A stretch of 64,000 nt of DNA, taken from positions 1 through 64,000 of IMG/VR virus record IMGVR_UViG_3300031669_000021; one strand, written 5' to 3'. Positions 171-60,183 of the stretch are shown here, piece after piece. Origin of the DNA: a virus. The notes under the pieces are model-generated. The model saw nothing but the letters and a program-made list of their open reading frames with translations, ran no database searches and was not told the origin of the DNA. Within the stretch, counting starts at the first letter, position 1. Each line of letters starts with the position of its first letter. A program made the translations under genes and the position numbers.

Positions 171-782
171 GTGTCCACTCCTGATAACATCAGCAATGAA
201 GAATTAATTGATGTACTAAAGACTATTTGTGTCACAGATGGAGATGGCAACAGGCATTGGTATCTAAATAATCAATTACACAGAGTTGATGGACCAGCAA
301 TTGAATATGCAGATGGCAACAGGCATTGGAATCTGAATAGCAAACGACATCGCGTTGATGGACCAGCAATTGAACATGCAGATGGCGCAAAGGAGTGGTT
401 TCTAAATGGTCAACGACATCGCGTTGATGGACCAGCAATTGAGATGGCAGATGGCAACAAGAGTTGGTATCTAAATGGTCAACGACACAGAGTTGATGGA
501 CCAGCAATTGAGATGGCAGATGGCAGCAAATGTTGGTATCTAAATGGTCAACTACACAGGGTTGATGGACCAGCAATTGAGATGGCAGATGGCGCAAAGC
601 ATTGGTATCTAAATGGTCAACGACACAGAGTTGATGGACCAGCAATTGAAGATGCAGATGGCAGCAAATGTTGGTATCTAAATGGTCAACTACACAGGGT
701 TGATGGACCAGCAATTGAGATGGCAGATGGCACAAAAGAATGGTGGTTGAATGGCATATTACATCACAGAGGAAGAATTTAA
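171..782 (+). CDS. MORN-like repeat protein (approx 8 x 23-aa DGPAIEYADGxKxWYLNGQxHRV repeats)
   Basis: Track ORF 87-782 contains the promoter, so start moved to in-frame GTG 171 at the position where ATG sits in other cassette copies; near-perfect 69-nt periodic repeats. Confidence 0.55.
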   Translation: MSTPDNISNEELIDVLKTICVTDGDGNRHWYLNNQLHRVDGPAIEYADGNRHWNLNSKRHRVDGPAIEHADGAKEWFLNGQRHRVDGPAIEMADGNKSWYLNGQRHRVDGPAIEMADGSKCWYLNGQLHRVDGPAIEMADGAKHWYLNGQRHRVDGPAIEDADGSKCWYLNGQLHRVDGPAIEMADGTKEWWLNGILHHRGRI

Positions 783-4456: not shown

Positions 4457-4765
4457 ATGAACAAGAAAATAAAAGAACTTCTTAAAGAAGCAAAAGCAGA
4501 ATCGTTTTATGCTTTTGCTGACGAACAACTGACACAGAGCATGGAACCAAAAGGTGCATTAGTAGTTGCCGAAAAGGATGGCCCAGGAAAAGGTCCTCAA
4601 CCTAACGGGCATTGCACTGAACTACAAAAAATTGATCTGAGGAAATTCGCAGAACTAATTGTGCAAGAATGTATGAACGTTTATGAAGCAATTGATAATG
4701 GTAATGCAGTAGAGGGAAGCAAGGATTTCCCCATTGCATTACATAGACGATTCATGGAGAAATAA
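4457..4765 (+). CDS. hypothetical protein, paralog trio member
   Basis: MNKKIKELLKEAK.. and FAELIVQECMNVYEAID shared with neighbours. Confidence 0.5.
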   Translation: MNKKIKELLKEAKAESFYAFADEQLTQSMEPKGALVVAEKDGPGKGPQPNGHCTELQKIDLRKFAELIVQECMNVYEAIDNGNAVEGSKDFPIALHRRFMEK

Positions 4766-4766
4766 T

Positions 4767-4991
4767 ATGAAACTGTATTACGACGCAGACAACGGCGGAC
4801 GAGAGGACTGGAGCGTATTCTATTGCACACCTGAAATTTTCTTAGATCCGAAGATCCGAGCAGAAAGAAAGAAGTTTGTGAAGTCAAAATGTCCAGAACT
4901 CAAGTTTCATGAAGTAGACATTAAAACTTCGGATACACACGATTTCGCAGTTGAATATTGCGAAATCGACGAGGAAAACGACGATGCTTAA
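4767..4991 (+). CDS. hypothetical protein 74 aa
   Basis: ATG 4767 two nt after previous TAA; track ORF started earlier at a non-ATG. Confidence 0.45.
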   Translation: MKLYYDADNGGREDWSVFYCTPEIFLDPKIRAERKKFVKSKCPELKFHEVDIKTSDTHDFAVEYCEIDEENDDA

Positions 4992-5352
4992 ATTTTTGCA
5001 GTTTATACAATGGTGTGGTAGGAAAATTTATGGAGGCTTAGTATCAGCGATTCTTAGCATCCCGAAAGGGATAGCCACTGTATTTCATGTGCTTAAACAC
5101 GAAGTAAGACACGCAACATTCCTGTTCAGTTTACTCTGGGCAATGTTTACCGCGTTTCTTTTGCTCGTGTCACTGGGAATTTCTGCCAGCATCGCACTTT
5201 GGTTCTCAATTAAGCATACGCCGTTCGTGACAATTACTGAGGTAGTGATTAGCATAAGCATCGTTTTATATGCAACACTGGTTGTCGGTATGATCTACGA
5301 TATGTTTGAAGAAGAGCAAGAACAGCTAATGGATATTTTGAAGAAAAAATAA
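4984..5352 (+). CDS. membrane protein approx 122 aa
   Basis: ATG 4984 overlapping previous stop; two to three TM segments. Confidence 0.45.
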   Translation: MLKFLQFIQWCGRKIYGGLVSAILSIPKGIATVFHVLKHEVRHATFLFSLLWAMFTAFLLLVSLGISASIALWFSIKHTPFVTITEVVISISIVLYATLVVGMIYDMFEEEQEQLMDILKKK

Positions 5353-8151: not shown

Positions 8152-8504
8152 GCACAATCAAGATTAATGGAAGAACAATTTCTGGCGACTTAGTTGCAGG
8201 AGATGTTTGCATATCATGTGGCACACTCGATATAAGAAATGGAAGAATGTTTGTTGATGGAAAAGAAGTTGATCTCGGCAATGAGCGCACGATTAACGTA
8301 GAAGTAATTGGCGATATTAAAAGTTTGCTCGTTGATTCATGTGACCAAGTTACAGTAGGAGGCAACGTTGAGAGGATTGGCACGGTATCAGGTGATGTGC
8401 GAGTTGCTGGAAATGTTGGAGGCTCCATATCAACAGTATCAGGAGATGTTCGTTGCGGCGATATTGCAGGCAGCATTTCAACAGTATCAGGCGATATTAA
8501 CTAA
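8148..8504 (+). CDS. beta-helix-like repeat protein (bactofilin-like GxVxGDV repeats)
   Basis: GTVSGDVRVAGNVGGSISTVSGDVRCGDIAGSISTVSGDIN periodic repeats. Confidence 0.4.
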   Translation: MSTIKINGRTISGDLVAGDVCISCGTLDIRNGRMFVDGKEVDLGNERTINVEVIGDIKSLLVDSCDQVTVGGNVERIGTVSGDVRVAGNVGGSISTVSGDVRCGDIAGSISTVSGDIN

Positions 8505-13312: not shown

Positions 13313-13738
13313 ATGGTTAATAAGTATAGATATCACGTAGATATGACAGCACCTGCAGAAGATGAGATTTTTGTCTTCGGCTCAAACCAGGCAGGAATAC
13401 ACGGTGCAGGTGCTGCAAGATACGCACTAAATGAGTTAGGAGCAAAATGGGGTTATGGTGTAGGAACAACAGGAAGATGTTATGCCATACCCACAAAGGA
13501 TTACAATATCAATTCTTTATCGTTAGAAGAGATTGTGTTTTATGTTGACATGTTTGTAGGGCACGCAGCATCGACACCAGATAAGAAGTATTTTGTAACA
13601 AGAGTTGGTTGTGGTCTTGCTGGATTCAAGGATTCAGAGATTGCTCCTATGTTTAAGAATGCTCCAGAAAATTGTAATCTGCCACAAGAGTGGCGAGAAT
13701 ATTTAACGAAAGAAGAAATTGATGACACTATGGATTGA
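13313..13738 (+). CDS. Rossmann/SLOG-like domain protein (FVFGSNQAGIHGAGAARYA motif)
   Basis: Gly-rich nucleotide-binding-like motif; family assignment uncertain. Confidence 0.45.
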   Translation: MVNKYRYHVDMTAPAEDEIFVFGSNQAGIHGAGAARYALNELGAKWGYGVGTTGRCYAIPTKDYNINSLSLEEIVFYVDMFVGHAASTPDKKYFVTRVGCGLAGFKDSEIAPMFKNAPENCNLPQEWREYLTKEEIDDTMD

Positions 13739-14189
13739 AAATGTTCCTGCAATAGCCATACCAACAGCAGATCACTTTGCTGCTGGCGAGAATTCTATGC
13801 TGATTCAGATCATGGATACTTGTTCTTCTTGGTGGCCTGAACCAAAACACAAGTTCAAAGAAGTCTACAAGTTTGAATTCTTAGATATTGGTGACGATGC
13901 GGGTGAGCTAGAAGAATTTGGTTGCACTGAAGAACAAGCAGTGGCATTGGTTGAACTTCTCAAACGCGCACAGGAAAATCGTATGCAGGTTGTCGTTCAT
14001 TGTCACGCAGGAATCTGCCGCAGCGGAGCCGTTGTGGAAGTTGCAGAGATGATGGGATTCACTCCTGTGGAGAGATATCGCCTGCCTAACTCTCGAGTAA
14101 AAAGATTGATGATGCGTGAATTAGGTCTTACATACGATTCAACTAACGATATCTATTCTCAAATTGAGAGGCGACTAAATTACTTCTAA
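13719..14189 (+). CDS. dual-specificity (Cys-based) protein phosphatase
   Basis: Catalytic P-loop VVHCHAGICRSG = HCxAGxxRSG. Confidence 0.7.
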   Translation: MMTLWIENVPAIAIPTADHFAAGENSMLIQIMDTCSSWWPEPKHKFKEVYKFEFLDIGDDAGELEEFGCTEEQAVALVELLKRAQENRMQVVVHCHAGICRSGAVVEVAEMMGFTPVERYRLPNSRVKRLMMRELGLTYDSTNDIYSQIERRLNYF

Positions 14190-19026: not shown

Positions 19027-19036
19027 CATATTTCGC

Positions 19037-19064
19037 TTGACTTTCTCCTCATTTAGTGTATAAT
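19037..19064 (+). promoter_or_regulatory. sigma70-type early promoter, cassette variant
   Basis: TTGACT 19037-19042, 16 nt, TG-TATAAT 19057-19064. Confidence 0.55.
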
Positions 19065-19087
19065 AGTCCTATAATGTAAGGAAGTTT

Positions 19088-19366: not shown

Positions 19367-20265
19367 ACAAAGCAATAATCACAGTAGGAATTTCAGCATC
19401 AGGCAAGTCAACCTTTGCGGATGAGTGGCTTAACGCAGGGCCTAATCGCGTCCGCATCGAGCGAGATCTTGTGCGTAAGGCACTGGTCGAAGCCGACGGG
19501 AAAGAATGGTCTTGGGACAAATGGAACTGGAAAAGAGAAAGCGAAGTTACTGCCATCATCAATCGCAGAATCGAAGCATGTGCAGGATCACATGACATCA
19601 TCCTGTCAGATACCAATCTGCACACTGGTCGTCGTAATACTCTTGTCAAGTGGCTTGAGTCTCTTGGCTACGAAGTCGAAGTGAAAATGTTTCCCGTATC
19701 AATCGAGGAAGCATGGAAGCGTGATGCAAAACGCGCAAATGGCGTAGGACATTCTGTCATTGCAAAACAATACGAGCAAAATCTCGAAAACAGCACACGA
19801 CGTCGTTATGTAGCTGACCCAAATAAACCAGCCTGCATCTTGGTTGATATCGACGGAACACTTGCTCATATGAACGGTAAGCGCGGTGCATTTGAATGGG
19901 AGAAGGTTGGTCTTGATGTCGTCGACGAGGCAGTTCGAGCTATTGTCAATCGCTTTGCATTCCGTGATGATGGTAGCACAGAAACAGACACCGTAGTTAT
20001 TGCACTCTCTGGGCGTGACGGTATTTGCGAGCCAGAAACACGGCAGTGGTTAAAGGACAACGATGTTGGATTCCACAAACTTTTTATGCGAGCACCAAAC
20101 GATATGCGAAAAGATACAATCGTCAAGGAAGAAATCTTCTGGCGAGATATTGCAGACAACTACAGTGTTCTGTTCGCTATCGACGACCGCCCAAGTGTTG
20201 CAAGAATGTGGCGTGAATTGGGAGTAAAAGTATTTCAAGTTGGCAATCCTCACATTGAATTTTAA
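19363..20265 (+). CDS. pseT: polynucleotide 5'-kinase / 3'-phosphatase (T4 Pnkp)
   Basis: N-terminal P-loop GISASGKST and ISDTNL; C-terminal HAD phosphatase VDIDGTLAHMNGKRG, RKDTIVKEEIFW, AIDDRPSV..MWRELGV; co-linear with T4 PseT. Confidence 0.85.
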   Translation: MNKAIITVGISASGKSTFADEWLNAGPNRVRIERDLVRKALVEADGKEWSWDKWNWKRESEVTAIINRRIEACAGSHDIILSDTNLHTGRRNTLVKWLESLGYEVEVKMFPVSIEEAWKRDAKRANGVGHSVIAKQYEQNLENSTRRRYVADPNKPACILVDIDGTLAHMNGKRGAFEWEKVGLDVVDEAVRAIVNRFAFRDDGSTETDTVVIALSGRDGICEPETRQWLKDNDVGFHKLFMRAPNDMRKDTIVKEEIFWRDIADNYSVLFAIDDRPSVARMWRELGVKVFQVGNPHIEF

Positions 20266-20272
20266 GGATATC

Positions 20273-20728
20273 ATGAGCAAAATAGCAGAAATAAAAACAG
20301 CACAACTGACAGCAAGAAAGGCACGTGATTCGATCACTGCTACATTGCTAACAACTATTATCGGCGAAGCAGAAATGGTCGGCAAGTCCGCCGGTAATCG
20401 CGAATCAACTGACGAAGAAGTTCTGGTCGTGCTGAAAAAGTTCGAGAAGAACATGCTGGAAAATCTACGCATTTACAATGCTCGAAGCATTGAGTATCAC
20501 AATGCAGCAGCGGCAGTCGAAACAGAACTTGAGATTGTCCGCAGGTTCTTGCCAGAGAAATTGACCAACTTGCAGGTCGAGAAAGATATTGGCACAGTTA
20601 TGCAAAAGTTGAATCTGGCCAAAGAACAACAGTCTCTTGGGATTATTGTCAAAGAGCTGAGAGCAAAATATGGCGATCAGTTTGATGGACAGCAAGTCTC
20701 GGGAACGTTTAAGCAAATGTTAGTTTAA
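20273..20728 (+). CDS. YqeY/GatB-C-terminal-domain-like protein
   Basis: Pattern similarity to YqeY (..SDEE..VLKKFEK..LPEKLT..); weak. Confidence 0.4.
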   Translation: MSKIAEIKTAQLTARKARDSITATLLTTIIGEAEMVGKSAGNRESTDEEVLVVLKKFEKNMLENLRIYNARSIEYHNAAAAVETELEIVRRFLPEKLTNLQVEKDIGTVMQKLNLAKEQQSLGIIVKELRAKYGDQFDGQQVSGTFKQMLV

Positions 20729-46447: not shown

Positions 46448-46626
46448 GCTGACATTGCTCCATAATGTTAGGGCAGTTGGGACTTCCGATCCGCGAGCTG
46501 CACTATTATTTATCCAAATTCTATCGCATCGATTTGCTTACTAATTACCTTAGAAAGAATAAGTAGTCTCGTTACAGCCCACGTAAGTCATTGATTTATT
46601 GTGGGCTATTCTTTGACATAAAGTTC

Positions 46627-46654
46627 TTGACATTTCGGTTAAAGAGTGTATAAT
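46627..46654 (+). promoter_or_regulatory. sigma70-type early promoter, cassette copy
   Basis: TTGACATTTCGGTTAAAGAGTG-TATAATAGCATCATACAGTTAATAAAGAGAGC; second TTGACA at 46613. Confidence 0.6.
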
Positions 46655-46686
46655 AGCATCATACAGTTAATAAAGAGAGCGCACAA

Positions 46687-46965: not shown

Positions 46966-47628
46966 GTGACACAAGATATGATAAAAATACCAGCCCCTGA
47001 TAACGTCAGCAATGAAGAATTAATTGAGGTACTAAAGACCATCTGTATCAGTAAGGCAGATGGCAACAAGAGTTGGTATCTAAATGATCAACGACACAGA
47101 GTTGATGGACCAGCAATTGAATATGCAGATGGCGCAAAGCATTGGTATCTAAATAATCAATTACACAGAATTGATGGACCAGCAATTGAATATGCAGATG
47201 GCACAAAGAGTTGGTATCTAAATAATCAACGACACAGAGTTGATGGACCAGCAATTGAAGATGCAGATGGCGCAAAGCATTGGTATCTAAATAATCAATT
47301 ACACAGAATTGATGGACCAGCAATTGAAGATGCAGATGGCAGCAAACATTGGTTTCTAAATGATCAACGACACAGAGTTGATGGGCCAGCAATTGAATAT
47401 TCAAATGGCACAAAGAGTTGGTATCTAAATGGTCAACGACACAGAGTTGATGGACCAGCAATTGAATATGCAGATGGCAGCAAATGTTGGTATCTAAATA
47501 ATCAATTACACAGAGTTGATGGACCAGCAATTGAATATGCAGATGGCAGCAAATGTTGGTATCTAAATGGTCATGAGATCACCGAAGAAGAATTCAATAG
47601 AAGAACAAAACCATATTCGCGACGATGA
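46966..47628 (+). CDS. MORN-like repeat protein, second paralog (approx 8 repeats)
   Basis: Same DGPAIEYADGxKxWYLNxQxHRV 23-aa repeats as 171-782; shared N-terminus PDNVSNEELIEVLKTIC. Confidence 0.6.
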   Translation: MTQDMIKIPAPDNVSNEELIEVLKTICISKADGNKSWYLNDQRHRVDGPAIEYADGAKHWYLNNQLHRIDGPAIEYADGTKSWYLNNQRHRVDGPAIEDADGAKHWYLNNQLHRIDGPAIEDADGSKHWFLNDQRHRVDGPAIEYSNGTKSWYLNGQRHRVDGPAIEYADGSKCWYLNNQLHRVDGPAIEYADGSKCWYLNGHEITEEEFNRRTKPYSRR

Positions 47629-53104: not shown

Positions 53105-53121
53105 TTTCGGTTTAACAAAAT

Positions 53122-53150
53122 TTGACTTTCTGATGCAAATAGTGCATAAT
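53122..53150 (+). promoter_or_regulatory. sigma70-type early promoter
   Basis: TTGACT 53122-53127, 17 nt, TG-CATAAT 53143-53150. Confidence 0.55.
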
Positions 53151-53155
53151 AGCCT

Positions 53156-57689: not shown

Positions 57690-58580
57690 ATGGCTAAGAA
57701 GAAAGCAGCAACACAAAAGAAAGAAACAAAAGCAGCAATTGCACCGCCAAACTTTAATATCGACGGAAATGCAAAGACTCACACTGATGTGGTCCAGCAA
57801 ATTCGAGAAATTCAAAAGAAGTATGCAGAAGATAATCCTAATCAAGCACCAGGAACACCATACGACTTTAGTAAATCACATCTTCATATTGGATTGCCTT
57901 GCTACGGCGGTCAACTTCTTGAATCAACAATGACGAGCATTATTAAGTTCATCTTGCTTGCTAGTCGAGCAGGGTTAAACTGGTCACTTGATACGATGGT
58001 TAATGAGTCATTGATTACTCGTGGTCGAAATAACTTGATGGCAAAGATGCTGTCAAACAAAGCAGCAACACATTTTATGTTCATTGATGCAGATATTCGC
58101 TTTGAGGCAGAATCAATTCTACAAATGATGGCAGCAAACAAAGATATTATTGCCGGCATGTATCCAAAGAAAGCATACCCAATCGCATATAACATCAACT
58201 TAAAGCCGCAAACTAAAATCCAAGGGCCGCTGTTTACTGTTGACACAGCAGCAACTGGCTTCTTAATGTATAAGCGAGAAGTATATGAGAAACTGATCGC
58301 GGCTCACCCTAACACAAAATACGTGGACGATGTGGGATTGGGCAAACAATACGAACCAAATATGTATGCCATCTTTGATTGTGTGATTGATGAGAAGGGC
58401 CACTACTTGTCAGAGGACTGGACATTCTGCCGTCGTGCTTCTGCACTTGGATACGATATATGGGCGGACTCACGTGTATTGCTTAACCACAGCGGAACGC
58501 ACGAATTCCAAGGAGATTTGAGCAAGCTTGGCGGACCTGTAGCGGCGGCCGTGGCAGCACCTCAAAATAATGCAAAATAA
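57690..58580 (+). CDS. putative GT-A fold glycosyltransferase
   Basis: FMFIDADIRFE DxD-type motif; family unclear. Confidence 0.4.
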   Translation: MAKKKAATQKKETKAAIAPPNFNIDGNAKTHTDVVQQIREIQKKYAEDNPNQAPGTPYDFSKSHLHIGLPCYGGQLLESTMTSIIKFILLASRAGLNWSLDTMVNESLITRGRNNLMAKMLSNKAATHFMFIDADIRFEAESILQMMAANKDIIAGMYPKKAYPIAYNINLKPQTKIQGPLFTVDTAATGFLMYKREVYEKLIAAHPNTKYVDDVGLGKQYEPNMYAIFDCVIDEKGHYLSEDWTFCRRASALGYDIWADSRVLLNHSGTHEFQGDLSKLGGPVAAAVAAPQNNAK

Positions 58581-58583
58581 CCC

Positions 58584-58612
58584 TTGACAAGAGGGTCATT
58601 TGAGTGTATAGT
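58584..58612 (+). promoter_or_regulatory. sigma70 promoter driving the tRNA
   Basis: CCCTTGACA 58584-58589, 17 nt, TG-TATAGT 58605-58612; tRNA 5' end 12 nt downstream. Confidence 0.6.
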
Positions 58613-58623
58613 ATATACATAAT

Positions 58624-58701
58624 GCGATTGTAGCTTAGTTTGGCCAAAAGCAGCGGCTTCTAACCCCGTGATCGTCGGTTCGAATCCGACCAAGCGCACC
58701 A
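58624..58701 (+). tRNA. tRNA, anticodon loop TTCTAAC giving anticodon CUA (amber-suppressor type); amino-acid identity undetermined
   Basis: Acceptor GCGATTG/CAAGCGC (one A-G mismatch), D-arm GCTT..AAGC, T-arm GTCGG-TTCGAAT-CCGAC, 4-nt variable loop, discriminator A, encoded CCA; U33 and A37 flank CTA; anticodon stem has one C-C mismatch. Confidence 0.55.
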
Positions 58702-58939
58702 AATGAAGAAAATATGAAAGCATACATGAGTAAAGAATTGAAAAAGATCCTGGTGCAACCAAATGCCAGAGCAATTCTTAAAAAGTGTATGAAAAAAGTT
58801 AGCGTACCAATTAATAAAACTAATAAAACTAATAAATAATATTATGTTGTAGATTAACCAAAATTTTTGTATCACTAACCACCCAAGCATGGATTCTCTA
58901 TGTTTGGGTTTTCTTTTGACCTTAGAAAGGAGCATCACC

Positions 58940-59317
58940 ATGTTGTAGATTAATGAAGATAAGAATTACGTTTATAGTTTTATTAGAACCGATCTGCCAA
59001 TCGAGCAGCAAATGGTTCAACTCGCACATTCTGCCTTAGAAGCAGGGCGAGAGTTCAACTCACCCACAACACCATCCCACCTAATTTTGCTTGAAGCGAA
59101 ATCTGAAGACGCACTCTTGCGTATTGCAGACGACCTCAAGAAGCAAGATATCCGTTTTCGGTTATTTTTCGAACCAGACGACGAGCGCGGTTACACAAGC
59201 TTGACAACTGAGTTTCTGACCGATAATGAAAAACGGAGATATTTCTCAAAGCATTCTTTATATAGATTCAATGCTAAGAGATCTTACAGCACCAAAGATG
59301 AAGTTCAATTTAACTAA
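58940..59317 (+). CDS. PTH2-like peptidyl-tRNA hydrolase candidate with in-frame TAG at codon 3 (ATG-TTG-TAG-ATT..)
   Basis: Frame open from 58949: INEDKNYVYSFIRTDLPIEQQMVQLAHSALEAG.. matches PTH2 N-terminal vvRtDL..GK.aAQ..HAa; first clean ATG is 59012 (track ORF) and would truncate the fold; SD AAGGAG 8 nt before ATG 58940. Confidence 0.4.
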
Positions 59318-59330
59318 AAGGAGAATCAAA

Positions 59331-59615
59331 ATGACACACACATCAAACGTATTAACATTTAACAGCCGCGCAACTTACCTCGAATTCCGTGCAGAGTGGA
59401 AGGCAGAATATAAGCAAGTATCGGCTAATATTCGAGAATGCAAGAACGCAATCAAAAACTCGCAACGTGAATCTGGTAACACACCGTTTCAGGTTTACCA
59501 TAAATTGCGTAGCTCACAGCGCCGTGCAAACGAAATGCTTGAGCTGTTGATTGAGGCTAAAAAGAAGGCGCAGAAGCAGTATTTGGAAGAACATATGGAG
59601 GTAGCACATGCTTAA
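59331..59615 (+). CDS. hypothetical protein 94 aa
   Basis: ATG 59331 after SD AAAGGAGAA. Confidence 0.5.
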   Translation: MTHTSNVLTFNSRATYLEFRAEWKAEYKQVSANIRECKNAIKNSQRESGNTPFQVYHKLRSSQRRANEMLELLIEAKKKAQKQYLEEHMEVAHA

Positions 59616-60183
59616 TTATAGTTGTTCAGACGTGGTGTTTCACTTCAACAAGAAACACCTGGAAGATCCCACTGTTCCTATGTGGGTTCTTAAAAGCCAC
59701 GGAGTCACGTTCTACGTTAATCACGTTGACGCGGAGGTTCCGTGGTCTACGAAAGAAACTCCAGATAACAGCCATACTAAAGGGAGTCTCAAATTTAAGA
59801 AGTGTAAATTGACAATTGACGAGGATAATTGTGCAGTAATATCAAAATTGTCAATAATGGACCGCCTTTTGCCGCACCCTAAGGTGGTTCATGCCCGTGT
59901 CATTGCCGACTTTGAGGGGGAGTTTCATCGCTCCCTCAAAGTAAGCGAATTTCAGCACAGCAAGATAAAGGAGATAGGTGGTGATTGCGGCTCATCGTTT
60001 ATTATCTGCGATTTATTAGATAAGAACGAGTCTTTGCTTGCAGCGATCAAATACGCCGGAAAATTTCGCATTTTAACACCAAATGAGAAATATTATCAGC
60101 AATATGAGCTAAAATGTGACTATATCAATGAGTATTTTGAGGAAGAGGAGGAAGATGATATAGTAGAACACGAAAACATATAA
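59608..60183 (+). CDS. hypothetical protein 191 aa, acidic C-terminus
   Basis: track ORF. Confidence 0.5.
   Translation: MLNYSCSDVVFHFNKKHLEDPTVPMWVLKSHGVTFYVNHVDAEVPWSTKETPDNSHTKGSLKFKKCKLTIDEDNCAVISKLSIMDRLLPHPKVVHARVIADFEGEFHRSLKVSEFQHSKIKEIGGDCGSSFIICDLLDKNESLLAAIKYAGKFRILTPNEKYYQQYELKCDYINEYFEEEEEDDIVEHENI

What the first reader, a model, noticed from the sequence alone, without database searches (positions are those of the whole stretch)
58584..59317. Promoter-driven CUA-anticodon tRNA next to twin ATG-TTG-TAG minigene motifs on the start of a PTH2-like peptidyl-tRNA hydrolase gene
A consensus sigma70 promoter (58584-58612) fires straight into a 78-nt tRNA (58624-58701) with a canonical T-arm (GTCGG-TTCGAAT-CCGAC), D-arm and encoded CCA. 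Its 7-nt anticodon loop TTCTAAC places CTA at positions 34-36 with U33 and A37, so it would decode UAG. About 240 bp downstream the 14-mer ATGTTGTAGATTAA occurs twice (58844-58857 and 58940-58953), exactly 96 nt (32 codons) apart and in the same frame with no stop in between. The second copy has AAGGAG 8 nt upstream. The frame then runs from TAG 58946 through INEDKNYVYSFIRTDLPIEQQMVQLAHSALEAG..., matching the N-terminal core of PTH2-type peptidyl-tRNA hydrolases (vvRtDL..GK.aAQ..HAa). The only canonical ATG in that frame (59012) lies inside the conserved core. Two readings are possible. (a) The gene starts at ATG 58940 and its third codon is an amber read by the co-located suppressor tRNA, i.e. 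suppressor-dependent expression. (b) ATG-TTG-TAG is a two-codon minigene analogous to lambda bar (Met-Ile-stop), which causes peptidyl-tRNA drop-off and is toxic when Pth is limiting; here it would sit on top of a phage Pth-like gene as a translation-shutoff or self-regulating module. In either case the tRNA, the minigenes and the hydrolase are adjacent. No other gene in this window is visibly TAG-interrupted, so genome-wide recoding is not indicated.
Basis: partly seen in the sequence, partly recalled or inferred. Interest (0 to 1): 0.88.

Follow-up and report, generated by a model that had tools for sequence, protein, structure and literature searches.

The report
Suppressor tRNA gates its neighbouring operon
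A phage carries an amber-suppressor tRNA directly upstream of an operon whose first gene has a stop codon (TAG) as its third codon, so the operon should be made only when that tRNA works. The same wiring recurs in about 95 other phage loci, which gives a concrete, testable job to suppressor tRNAs in standard-code phages.

Summary
The window has a sigma70-like promoter (58584-58612), a tRNA with anticodon CUA (58624-58701), and two exact copies of ATGTTGTAGATTAA (58844, 58940). The PTH2-like reading frame can only start at ATG 58940 and has TAG as codon 3.

Comparison with relatives supports reading (a) and argues against the bar-minigene reading (b):
- SD-ATG, then 1-4 more sense codons, then TAG, then a purine heads this gene in 31 distinct phage loci, including seven named cultured phages (GAP32, ME3, Arash, RsoM2USA among them).
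- The same motif heads an unrelated, much larger family, "gene X". That is the window's own ORF 59608-60183. It is gated in 64 of 64 distinct loci examined.
- A CUA tRNA usually lies just upstream on the same strand.
- Only this gene is TAG-interrupted in the window, and only its homologue in the whole ME3 genome.

The upstream 14-mer is not a relic. In 12 loci it opens a leader ORF that sits before an intrinsic terminator. After its own TAG the leader frame stays open across the hairpin and T-run in 12 of 12 loci and ends at the gene's start.

I infer a natural feed-forward gate with a readthrough-dependent attenuator. The amino acid inserted and the functions of the proteins are unknown. I found no prior description.

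The parts
58584..58612 (+). Sigma70-type promoter (TTGACA-17-TATAGT) for the tRNA transcription unit.
   Evidence: 11 of 12 consensus positions. No terminator-like site is predicted between it and 58881.
58624..58701 (+). Amber-suppressor-type tRNA: anticodon CUA, short variable loop, G1-C72/C2-G71/G3-C70, A73, CCA encoded.
   Evidence: Homologous CUA tRNAs lie upstream of the gated gene in most related loci.
58714..58839 (+). Small ORF of 41 codons. Its TAA stop lies 4 nt before the leader ATG, so it may deliver ribosomes to the leader, which has no SD (inferred).
   Evidence: It is conserved as an ORF, with an SD, in the closest relative L016. It is absent in L012 and L017.
58831..58843 (+). 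Conserved A/T box (AATAAATAATATT) that aligns with -10-like TATAAT/TATAAA boxes lying 6-8 nt before the leader ATG in relatives.
   Evidence: In L014 and L020 a full TTGCAT-17-TA(C/T)AAT promoter puts the predicted transcription start on the leader ATG. In the window the match is weak (one search scores 9/12 for a neighbouring register).
58844..58857 (+). 14-mer copy 1. It is the start of a leader ORF: ATG TTG TAG ATT AA.
   Evidence: ATG-NNN-TAG-AT is invariant in the 12 aligned leaders.
58853..58939 (+). Continuation of the leader ORF past its amber codon. These 29 sense codons cross the hairpin, T-run and SD and run in frame into ATG 58940.
   Evidence: the leader frame clears the T-run in 12 of 12 loci. 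The other two frames do so in 2 and 1 of 12.
58881..58919 (+). Intrinsic-terminator-like element: a 13-pair hairpin (58881-58909) followed by TTTCTTTTGA.
   Evidence: Every leader-bearing locus has its own hairpin of different sequence followed by the same type of T-run.
58912..58931 (+). Possible weak helix between the T-run (UCUUUU, 58912-58917) and the SD (AAAGGA, 58926-58931).
   Evidence: It is predicted in most loci but has no compensatory changes, so it is unproven.
58926..58932 (+). Shine-Dalgarno AAAGGAG, 7 nt before ATG 58940.
   Evidence: Sequence. All 27 tabulated homologous starts show a purine-rich SD-like stretch shortly before the ATG that precedes TAG (spacing read by eye).
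58940..59317 (+). Amber-gated CDS: ATG TTG TAG (58946-58948), then a 122-codon body with a PTH2 fold. The stop is at 59315-59317. The 14-mer copy 2 is 58940-58953.
59331..59615 (+). Second operon gene, 94 aa, no known family.
   Evidence: Follows the gated gene in 18 loci. No significant Pfam match.
59608..60183 (+). Third operon gene, 'gene X', 191 aa. Here it has an ordinary start. Where it heads the operon in other phages it carries the amber gate itself.
   Evidence: The fold is unknown.

Best explanation
The region is a single regulatory module in a phage that otherwise uses the standard genetic code. A sigma70-type promoter transcribes an amber-suppressor tRNA (anticodon CUA) together with the RNA downstream of it.

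The operon that follows has three genes: a PTH2-fold protein, a 94-aa protein and 'gene X'. It begins SD-AUG-UUG-UAG-AUU, so its first protein is made only if the phage tRNA outcompetes RF1 at codon 3. The tRNA and its target lie on one strand with no predicted terminator between the tRNA promoter and the leader. I therefore infer that they share a transcript. That makes a coherent feed-forward AND gate, which should suppress leaky expression and delay onset until mature, charged suppressor tRNA has built up.

In the window's lineage a second gate lies upstream. A leader ORF with the same AUG-UUG-UAG-AUU start precedes an intrinsic terminator.
- If RF1 ends translation at the leader UAG, which is 28 nt before the hairpin, the hairpin forms and transcription stops.
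- If the UAG is read through, the ribosome runs across the hairpin and T-run and reaches the gene's start. This would prevent termination and couple translation into the gene.

Shown: all the sequence elements, their conservation, the tRNA linkage, the open leader frame, and the absence of other TAG-interrupted genes.

Inferred: actual readthrough, co-transcription, antitermination, and the kinetic purpose of the circuit.

Unknown: the amino acid inserted and what the proteins do.
For: 1. **The gate is conserved.** 27 distinct metagenomic or viral loci of the PTH2-like family start with an SD-like stretch shortly before ATG, then 1-4 more sense codons, then TAG. The base after TAG is A in 22 and G in 5, never a pyrimidine. 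TAG is codon 3 in 21 of 27. Four further records show the same start: GAP32, Arash, RsoM2USA and the 595-kb LR756511.

2. **The same cassette heads an unrelated family.** Gene X has 1590 database homologues. All 64 distinct starts examined have an in-frame TAG followed by A. The next codon is ATT in 51, ATC in 10, ATA in 2 and AAC in 1. An SD-like motif is present in 64 of 64.

3. **The tRNA is linked.** A CUA tRNA lies on the same strand upstream of the gated gene in the window and about 19 further PTH2-family loci. It is present in 41 of 53 gene-X loci that have at least 1.5 kb of upstream sequence, upstream in 40 of them and often 100-400 nt away. GAP32, Arash and RHph_I1_18 have it within 3 kb on the downstream side.

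4. **There is no general recoding.** The window is densely coding under code 11. TAG ends about 8 of 90 ORFs, and no other convincing TAG-interrupted gene exists. In the whole 234.9-kb ME3 genome the homologue is the only convincing gated gene.

5. **The leader looks functional.** In 12 loci an upstream ATG-NNN-TAG-AT lies 92-129 nt before the gene ATG. It is followed, 20-31 nt later, by a hairpin whose sequence is specific to each locus, and then by a T-run.
   - After the TAG the leader frame clears the T-run in 12 of 12 loci, against 2 and 1 of 12 for the other frames. The per-locus shuffle probability is 0.17-0.29.
   - The leader ORF ends between -18 and +6 relative to the gene ATG, in three different relative frames.
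   - A -10-like box lies 6-8 nt before the leader ATG in most of them.

6. **A synthetic precedent exists.** The same wiring was built as a 'leak dampener' in E. coli (PMC7969014).
Against: - There are no expression data. Readthrough, co-transcription and antitermination are all inferred.
- The window's tRNA has two stem mismatches (A4.G69 and C31.C39, read from the sequence), so its efficiency is unknown.
- The leader ATG in the window has no SD and only a weak promoter match. Its translation depends on coupling to the small upstream ORF or on a leaderless start, both inferred.
- Most gene-X loci and several PTH2-family loci (ME3, GAP32, L006, L019) have no leader or terminator, so the attenuator is a feature of one lineage.
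- A few family members have no early stop: L010, L011, L013, L043 and RaK2. In XacN1 and RAS14 the domain is fused into a larger ORF. One locus (L045) has TAA instead of TAG.
- 12 of 53 gene-X loci show no CUA tRNA within about 4 kb.
- MAFFT plus RNAalifold did not recover the terminator as a consensus structure. The evidence for it is per-sequence folding.
- The loci are evolutionarily related, so the 12-of-12 count overstates independence.
Confidence: 0.7

Rival explanations
1. Lambda-bar-like minigenes. AUG-UUG-UAG would be a two-codon ORF whose role is peptidyl-tRNA drop-off, either for translation shut-off or for self-regulation of a phage peptidyl-tRNA hydrolase. The suppressor tRNA would be incidental.
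For: A strong SD lies 7 nt before a 2-codon ORF. The TAG is always within 2-6 codons of the ATG, with one case at codon 10. From my own knowledge, short nascent chains are prone to drop-off. The first protein in the window has a PTH2 fold.
Against: - The stop is TAG in 94 of 95 distinct starts, whereas bar elements use UAA or UGA (my knowledge).
- The frame always continues into a conserved protein that has no other start.
- The second codon and the ORF length vary.
- The same cassette heads gene X, which is not a hydrolase.
- A CUA tRNA co-occurs.
- The leader frame is kept open after its TAG. That has no purpose if translation always ends there.
Confidence: 0.07
2. Termination followed by reinitiation. 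The ribosome would end at UAG and restart on the adjacent AUU, AUC or AUA near-cognate codon, so the protein would be made without suppression. The mini-ORF would only tune initiation.
For: The codon after TAG is ATT, ATC or ATA in 63 of 64 gene-X starts and in most PTH2-family starts. From my own knowledge, AUU is a known rare start codon (infC).
Against: - In several loci TAG is followed by AAC or AAT (L006, L021, L025, L029, GAP32, Arash, RHph_I1_18) or by GTT or GTA (L005, L007, L038, L040, L044). None of these is a start codon.
- It does not explain why the stop is always TAG, or why a CUA tRNA is linked.
- It does not explain the open leader frame.
Confidence: 0.06
3. Product-specific feedback. 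The PTH2-like enzyme would act on the suppressor tRNA itself, by deacylating it or releasing peptidyl-tRNA(CUA). The amber codon in its own gene would close a homeostatic loop, as the UGA frameshift site does for RF2 and the AUU start does for IF3.
For: The sensor sits in the gene's own mRNA, next to the tRNA. The fold is that of a tRNA-ester hydrolase. In other lineages the domain is adjacent to, or fused with, an HD-like domain, and tRNA genes surround the homologue in several phage genomes.
Against: - The gate is carried far more often by gene X, which has no PTH2 domain nearby. It therefore follows operon position, not this protein.
- The canonical catalytic Lys is absent in the alignment.
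- GAP32 also encodes a canonical PTH2 that carries no gate.
Confidence: 0.12
4. Evolutionary intermediate without a regulatory role. The TAG would be a tolerated first step towards code-15 recoding, in the N-terminal tail of dispensable genes. The twin 14-mer would be a duplication relic.
For: A path from acquisition of a suppressor tRNA to the appearance of in-frame stops has been proposed for phages (bioRxiv 10.1101/2021.08.26.457843). The TAG lies in a weakly modelled N-terminal tail: mean pLDDT is 73 for the first 10 residues of the model, which starts just after the TAG.
Against: - The position, the 3' purine and the SD spacing are conserved across about 95 distinct starts in two unrelated families while adjacent codons drift.
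- No other TAG-containing genes have accumulated in the window or in ME3.
- The leader copy keeps ATG-NNN-TAG-AT and an open frame in diverged loci where the two copies are no longer identical.
Confidence: 0.05

Closest known systems
Stop-codon recoding in phages (code 15, TAG read as Gln) as a post-transcriptional regulator of late and lysis genes. Sources: Borges et al., bioRxiv 10.1101/2021.08.26.457843; Peters et al., PMC9523058.
   Same: A phage-encoded CUA suppressor tRNA makes translation of TAG-containing phage genes conditional in a host that uses the standard code.
   Different: There, many genes, mostly structural and lysis genes, carry many in-frame TAGs. Here a single TAG at about codon 3 sits on one operon head next to the tRNA, in genomes otherwise read with the standard code. 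No release-factor gene or other recoding accessory was seen in the window.
Synthetic 'leak dampener': a type-1 coherent feed-forward loop in which one promoter drives a suppressor tRNA and a target gene carrying amber codons (Ho et al., NAR 2021, PMC7969014).
   Same: The wiring is the same. The tRNA and its amber-containing target respond to the same transcriptional input. The output needs both, which lowers leak.
   Different: That circuit is engineered, uses supP and places several TAGs at Leu codons. The natural version uses one TAG at codon 3 in a fixed context. In one lineage it adds an amber-containing leader ORF over a terminator.
Leader-peptide attenuation in which the translating ribosome blocks a terminator hairpin (E. 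coli pyrBI type; my own knowledge).
   Same: A short leader ORF runs through an intrinsic terminator just upstream of the regulated gene. A ribosome following RNA polymerase would prevent the hairpin from forming.
   Different: The sensing codon here is a stop codon at leader position 3. Whether the ribosome reaches the hairpin would depend on suppressor tRNA against RF1, not on UTP-dependent pausing or on amino-acid supply. This has not been tested experimentally.
Autoregulatory recoding sites in translation-factor genes: the prfB UGA frameshift and the infC AUU start (my own knowledge).
   Same: An early non-standard decoding event in the mRNA sets the output according to the activity of a translation component.
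   Different: In those cases the gene product is the factor being sensed. Here the sensed component is a separate tRNA. The gated proteins belong to at least two unrelated families.
Lambda bar minigenes (AUG AUA UAA/UGA; my own knowledge).
   Same: A two-codon ORF with an SD in a phage genome, and a link to peptidyl-tRNA hydrolase.
   Different: The stop is TAG only. The frame continues into a conserved protein. The second codon varies. A cognate suppressor tRNA is linked.
PTH2 (PF01981), the archaeal and eukaryotic peptidyl-tRNA hydrolase 2 (PDB 1xty, 1q7s, 3erj, 2zv3).
   Same: The fold is the same: TM-score 0.55-0.70 with the top 12 hits, all PTH2. The R-x-D-L ... Q..H.A N-terminal motif is shared.
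   Different: Identity is 13-18%. The Pfam score is below the gathering threshold. A profile search of PDB sequences finds no PTH2. There is a two-residue deletion where the catalytic Lys18 lies. GAP32 has a separate canonical PTH2.

Membership tests
Amber suppressor tRNA | Canonical cloverleaf tRNA | tested here: met
   ARAGORN. Rfam RF00005 scores 53 bits against a gathering score of 29. Two stem mismatches were read from the sequence.
Amber suppressor tRNA | Anticodon CUA in a 7-nt loop with U33 and a purine at position 37 | tested here: met
   The loop is TTCTAAC. 23 distinct related CUA tRNAs share the loop (C/T)TCTAA(A/C/T), except ME3, which has C33.
Amber suppressor tRNA | Charged by a synthetase and active at UAG in vivo; identity of the inserted amino acid | not testable with these tools
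   Similarity to E. coli and phage tRNAs gives no clear isotype: the best matches are 0.61-0.79 identical and spread over Lys, Met, Phe, Arg and others. A73 and C2-G71 do not fit E. coli Gln identity (my own knowledge). The 'Q' in database proteins is a code-15 translation, not evidence.
PTH2 peptidyl-tRNA hydrolase (PF01981) | Sequence match above Pfam's gathering score | tested here: not met
   15.3 bits against 23, E = 0.023. 3 of 64 homologues carry a precomputed PF01981 hit. A profile search against PDB sequences finds no PTH2.
PTH2 peptidyl-tRNA hydrolase (PF01981) | PTH2 alpha/beta fold | tested here: met
   The AF2 model has pLDDT 85.5. The top 14 Foldseek PDB hits are all PTH2/Bit1.
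PTH2 peptidyl-tRNA hydrolase (PF01981) | Catalytic Lys18 and Asp86 (S. solfataricus numbering; my own knowledge of the literature) | tested here: not met
   The hhalign match is marginal (E = 2.6e-4, probability 42.5%). In it Lys18 falls in a two-residue gap and Asp86 aligns with a variable column. The family has its own invariant set instead: E19, Q21, Q24, H27, E75, G81, T87.
PTH2 peptidyl-tRNA hydrolase (PF01981) | Hydrolysis of peptidyl-tRNA | not testable with these tools
   This needs an enzyme assay.
Code-15 recoded phage genome | In-frame TAG in many genes, with fragmented ORFs under code 11 | tested here: not met
   The window has 90 ORFs covering 83% of its length under code 11, and only one gated gene. 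The whole ME3 genome has one.
Lambda bar-type minigene | A free-standing 2-3-codon ORF with an SD, whose effect is peptidyl-tRNA drop-off | tested here: not met
   An SD and a 2-codon ORF are present. However, the frame continues into a conserved protein, the stop is TAG only, and a cognate tRNA is linked. Toxicity cannot be tested here.
Leader-peptide transcription attenuator | A leader ORF upstream of, and overlapping, an intrinsic terminator that precedes the regulated gene | tested here: met
   Hairpin plus T-run at 58881-58919. The leader ORF spans it only if the UAG is read through, and its frame is open in 12 of 12 loci.
Leader-peptide transcription attenuator | Translation of the leader changes terminator readthrough | not testable with these tools
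   This needs Term-seq or a coupled in vitro transcription-translation assay.
Suppressor-tRNA coherent feed-forward loop | The tRNA and its stop-codon-bearing target are under the same transcriptional input | tested here: inconclusive
   In the window the promoter at 58584 is followed by no predicted terminator until 58881. In many gene-X loci the tRNA ends roughly 20-400 nt before the target's SD on the same strand. Co-transcription is inferred, not measured.

The most novel reading that the evidence does not exclude
Suppressor tRNAs in standard-code phages have a dedicated target: the operon next to them, gated by a TAG at about codon 3. In the window's lineage the twin ATG-TTG-TAG would form a new class of attenuator. 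It would be a leader ORF whose stop codon is the sensor, so that transcription past the terminator and translation of the first gene both require amber readthrough. The result would be a natural two-stage AND gate, or timer, built from a tRNA.
Probability: 0.45. Interest if true: 0.92.

Novelty: new variant of a known kind. Interest (0 to 1): 0.88.

Why it matters
- **An open question becomes testable.** Authors of jumbo-phage genome papers state that they could not find what their CUA suppressor tRNAs act on (XacN1, PMC5852040; RsoM2USA, PMC8504454). This analysis gives a specific target in culturable systems: GAP32, CBB, BF, ME3, Arash, RsoM2USA and RHph_I1_18.
- **Annotation errors are systematic.**
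  - The gated genes are truncated or missing in GenBank records.
  - They are truncated in PHROGs, where phrog_34073 has 77 positions.
  - 54 of the top 120 gene-X database proteins start at an internal codon.
  - Others carry a 'Q' that is really a TAG.
- **It would be a natural counterpart of an engineered circuit.** If confirmed, it is also a possible new attenuation mechanism and a minimal state on the path to stop-codon recoding.
- **It flags a large uncharacterised family.** Gene X has about 1590 database members and 390 IMG/VR loci. Its fold is unknown, and its expression appears to be deliberately kept off unless the tRNA is active.

Tried and rejected
- **The 14-mer as a general promoter or operator motif.** There is no other copy with 2 or fewer mismatches in 64 kb.
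- **A known RNA family.** An Rfam E-value scan of 58400-59400 finds only the tRNA, with no T-box or riboswitch. A T-box-like direct tRNA sensor was therefore dropped. The leader is also only about 65 nt long, and the same motif sits on an SD-led start codon.
- **Consensus structure of the leader.** MAFFT plus RNAalifold misaligned the hairpins and returned only a weak T-run:SD helix with no compensatory pairs. I relied on per-sequence folds instead.
- **Isotype of the tRNA.** Pairwise identity to E. coli tRNA sequences entered from memory and to co-resident phage tRNAs gave no clear answer.
- **'Q' at position 3 of database homologues as evidence for Gln.** Rejected. P0039 (MSQIAEDKN...) is the locus L004 sequence MS*IAEDKN..., so the Q is a code-15 translation.
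- **A PTH2 relationship at the sequence level.** It fails. It is marginal by hhalign, E = 2.6e-4.
- **Function of gene X.**
  - Pfam finds nothing.
  - Foldseek against PDB finds nothing better than E = 0.04.
- **The HD-like partner protein seen in other lineages.** It is not in the window (tblastn).
- **Genome-contig scan.** No relative was found in bacterial or archaeal genomes.
- **Other gated genes in the window.** ATG CAG TAG at 4704 and ATG AAG TAG at 4909 have no SD and lie inside upstream ORFs, so they are not convincing.
- **Literature.** Seven full-text searches found no description of this arrangement.
Full report
**1. The observation**

ARAGORN finds one tRNA in the window, at 58624-58701 on the + strand, with anticodon CTA. 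Rfam's tRNA model scores it 53 bits. A TTGACA-17-TATAGT promoter ends 11 nt upstream of it.

ATGTTGTAGATTAA occurs exactly twice, at 58844 and 58940. There is no near-copy elsewhere. Apart from tandem repeats that lie inside ORFs and one unexamined 14-nt pair at 8430, it is the only local exact repeat of that length. Markov shuffles give 0.07 such pairs per window.

The frame after TAG 58946 is open for 122 codons. Its first canonical start is 21 codons in, at ATG 59012. The SD AAAGGAG lies 7 nt before ATG 58940.

It lies between the two copies.

**2. The gene starts at ATG 58940 and carries an amber codon**

The first related record found was Acinetobacter phage ME3. It has a CTA tRNA, then a small ORF, then a homologue whose frame begins ATG ACT TAG ATT. 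Its annotated CDS starts later.

I collected 64 database homologues, 9 IMG/VR loci, 31 metagenome loci, three long contigs and 35 phage records. Nearly every member starts the same way:
- There are 27 distinct starts from metagenomic and viral contigs.
- All 27 show an SD-like stretch shortly before the ATG, followed by 1-4 more sense codons and then TAG.
- TAG is codon 3 in 21 of the 27.
- The next base is A in 22 and G in 5, never a pyrimidine.
- The neighbouring codons differ between loci.

Four phage records inspected directly have the same start: GAP32 (MAQ*NEKTW), Arash (ML*NKHW), RsoM2USA (ATG TTG TAG ATT, unannotated) and the 595-kb LR756511. These genes are annotated as truncated or not at all.

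The exceptions are as follows:
- L010, L011, L013, L043 and RaK2 have no early stop.
- In XacN1, RAS14 and Xoo-sp13 the domain is fused into a longer ORF.
- L045 has TAA instead of TAG.

Database proteins that read 'MxQI...' are code-15 translations of this TAG. P0039 is the L004 sequence. They say nothing about which amino acid is inserted.

**3. The upstream copy opens a leader ORF across a terminator**

In 12 distinct loci an ATG-NNN-TAG-AT motif lies 92-129 nt upstream of the gene ATG. These loci are the window, L012, L014, L005, L017, L020, L021, L022, L038, L039, L040 and L044.

In each, a hairpin begins 20-31 nt after the TAG. The stems are 8-13 pairs or more. Their sequences differ from locus to locus. 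A GGGTTTTCTTTTGAC-type T-run follows and abuts the SD.

After the leader TAG, the leader frame stays open past the end of the T-run in 12 of 12 loci. The other two frames do so in 2 and 1 of 12. Shuffles give 0.17-0.29 per locus. The loci are related, so they are not fully independent.

The leader ORF then ends between -18 and +6 relative to the gene ATG. In L040 and L044 it ends in an ATGA overlap. In the window, L005, L014, L020 and L039 it runs in frame into the gene's own ATG-NNN-TAG. These cases fall in three different relative frames.

A TATAAT- or TATAAA-like box lies 6-8 nt before the leader ATG in most of the 12. L014 and L020 have a full TTGCAT-17-TA(C/T)AAT promoter there. That would place the transcription start on the ATG and make the leader a leaderless ORF.

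In the window that box is degenerate. The leader more probably lies on the tRNA transcript. A conserved 41-codon ORF (58714-58839) stops 4 nt before the leader ATG.

In diverged loci the two copies are not identical, for example ATGTTATAGATC against ATGAAGTAGGTT in L005. The exact identity in the window is therefore not the essential feature.

**4. The gate belongs to the operon head, not to the hydrolase**

A pattern search for T-run, SD and ATG-NNN-TAG in IMG/VR returned two loci. Both carry the full cassette of leader, hairpin, T-run, SD and ATG TCA TAG ATT. In both it precedes a homologue of the window's third gene, ORF 59608-60183 or 'gene X', with a CTA tRNA upstream.

Gene X has 1590 database homologues and 390 IMG/VR loci. 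Of the top 120 proteins, 54 start at an internal (M/V)FHFNK and about 45 read MxQIEY. DNA from three of the internally started ones shows MK*IEY, MTQS*IQY and MA*IEY.

All 64 distinct gene-X starts examined have these features:
- an in-frame TAG followed by A;
- ATT (51), ATC (10), ATA (2) or AAC (1) as the next codon;
- an SD-like motif (64 of 64);
- TAG as codon 3 in 38 of them.

A CTA tRNA is present in 41 of 53 loci that have at least 1.5 kb of upstream sequence. It is upstream in 40 of these, often 100-400 nt away. Most of these loci have no leader or terminator.

The cultured Rhizobium phage RHph_I1_18 has an unannotated gated copy with the CTA tRNA directly downstream.

In the window, gene X has an ordinary start because it lies third, behind the PTH2-like gene and a 94-aa gene. 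These neighbours are conserved in 14 and 18 loci.

**5. No general recoding**

Under code 11 the window yields 90 ORFs covering 83% of the sequence. TAG ends 8 of them. The only convincing 'ATG, few codons, TAG, long frame with no nearby start' is the one at 58946.

In the complete ME3 genome only seven sites fit a loose version of that pattern. Only the homologue is convincing, and no gene is split by a TAG.

**6. The tRNA**

The 23 distinct CTA tRNAs from these loci mostly share GCGC...GCGC-A-CCA acceptor ends and a (C/T)TCTAAA loop. Similarity to other tRNAs gives no clear isotype.

From my own knowledge of E. coli identity rules, A73 and C2-G71 argue against GlnRS. CUA-anticodon tRNAs with A73 have often been charged with Lys. 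This is a lead, not a result.

**7. The proteins**

- **PTH2-like protein.** The model has pLDDT 85.5. It matches only PTH2/Bit1 structures, with TM-scores of 0.55-0.70 for the top 12. Pfam is below threshold. A profile search of PDB sequences finds no PTH2. A marginal hhalign match puts the catalytic Lys18 in a two-residue gap. GAP32 also has a canonical PTH2 with no gate. I call this protein PTH2-fold with unknown activity.
- **HD-like partner.** In other lineages the PTH2-like domain sits beside, or is fused to, an HD-like domain. That domain is absent from the window.
- **Gene X.** The model has pLDDT 86, but there is no significant structural match.

**8. Mechanism**

Shown: the elements, their order, their conservation and the tRNA linkage.

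Inferred:
- (i) The phage tRNA reads UAG at codon 3 of the first gene. From my own knowledge, the 3' purine is the context known to favour amber suppression in E. coli.
- (ii) The tRNA and its target share a transcript. That makes a coherent feed-forward AND gate of the kind built synthetically to remove leak (PMC7969014).
- (iii) In the window's lineage, termination at the leader UAG, 28 nt before the hairpin, lets the terminator form. Readthrough sends the ribosome across the terminator to the gene's start. This gives antitermination plus translational coupling.

I put about 0.85 on (i), about 0.6 on (ii) as the purpose of the arrangement, and about 0.5 on (iii).

**9. Rivals**

I considered four rival explanations:
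- a bar-type minigene;
- reinitiation at AUU;
- product-specific feedback;
- a neutral intermediate on the way to recoding.

Each fails on one or more of five observations: TAG specificity, the non-start codons after TAG in several loci, the transfer of the gate to an unrelated family, the open leader frame, and the absence of other TAG-containing genes. Details are in the rival entries.

**10. Novelty**

Stop-codon recoding with suppressor tRNAs as a regulator of phage late genes is known. A single, position-fixed amber gate on the operon beside the tRNA in standard-code phages was not found in seven full-text searches. Nor was an amber-containing leader ORF over a terminator.

Two jumbo-phage papers state that the targets of their suppressor tRNAs are unknown. 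RsoM2USA has the gated gene. XacN1 has only the ungated fusion.

**11. Caveats**

There are no expression data of any kind. The window's tRNA has two stem mismatches. The leader's initiation signal in the window is weak. The related loci share ancestry. The literature library does not cover most subscription journals.

Noticed in passing
window 59608-60183: This 191-aa ORF ('gene X') belongs to a very large phage family: 1590 database homologues and 390 IMG/VR loci. It has no Pfam domain and no significant structural match. Elsewhere it is nearly always amber-gated at about codon 3 and linked to a CTA tRNA.
   Followed up: yes
window 242-650 and 47068-47500: Tandem repeats with a 69-nt period (23 codons) lie inside two ORFs, 87-782 and 46966-47628. 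The two ORFs look like paralogous repeat proteins.
   Followed up: no
window about 1240-1270, 19035-19066, 46625-46656, 53120-53152: Near-identical strong promoters recur: TTGAC(T/A)-17-TATAAT, directly followed by TAG. They look like the phage's early promoter set.
   Followed up: no
window 4704-4712 and 4909-4917: Two more ATG-NNN-TAG-purine motifs (ATG CAG TAG A; ATG AAG TAG A) lie in frame with ORFs that otherwise start at TTG (4734-4991 and 4951-5352). They have no SD and lie inside the upstream ORFs, so they are probably chance.
   Followed up: partly
L008/ME3 gp267, L049/Arash gp83c, L051/RsoM2USA_91, L046/GAP32_399, L006, L042; fused in L047/XacN1 ORF364, L052/RAS14, L054/Xoo-sp13: In other lineages the PTH2-like gene is followed by an HD-like protein of about 180 aa (YHxYHDCGKP...; Pfam HD E about 0.02, below threshold). 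In Xanthomonas and Stenotrophomonas jumbo phages the two are fused into one ungated ORF. This suggests a shared role at an RNA or tRNA end.
   Followed up: partly
L050 (GAP32) 13355-13783 versus 20126-20465: GAP32 encodes a canonical PTH2 (PF01981, ungated) as well as the amber-gated PTH2-like paralogue. Its annotated Sup-tRNA lies 3 kb downstream of the gated gene.
   Followed up: partly
L045 about 626-650: One distant homologue has TAA, not TAG, as codon 3 (ATG TTG TAA GTA). No tRNA is present on the 5-kb contig. It could be an ochre-gated variant or a pseudogene.
   Followed up: no
L013 2704-4369: A 75%-identical relative keeps the CTA tRNA but has lost the TAG (ATG TTA ACA AAT...). It has a NUMOD3 homing-endonuclease gene inserted, on the opposite strand, where the leader and terminator would be.
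   Followed up: partly
L012 3792-3826: Directly after the CTA tRNA there is a tRNA-like T-arm and acceptor fragment (...GCGGGTTTGATTCCCGCCGGACCCACCA). It occupies the place of the window's 41-codon ORF.
   Followed up: no
L039 1322-1397 and 1533-1608: Two different CTA tRNA genes lie in tandem upstream of one gated gene.
   Followed up: no
public records and libraries: Mis-annotation is systematic. The CTA tRNA is labelled tRNA-Phe in Arash, tRNA-Pyl in RHph_I1_18 and tRNA-OTHER in ME3 and GAP32. ARAGORN calls L029's CTA tRNA Phe(aaa). phrog_34073 (77 positions) matches only residues 37-110 of the 122-aa PTH2-like protein. Gated genes are missing or shortened in GAP32, ME3, Arash, RsoM2USA and RHph_I1_18.
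   Followed up: partly
ME3 record 220312-220314 and 184852-184854 (- strand): gp159|gp160 and gp224|gp225 are same-frame neighbours separated only by a TAG and 2-3 codons. Amber readthrough would produce fusion proteins.
   Followed up: no
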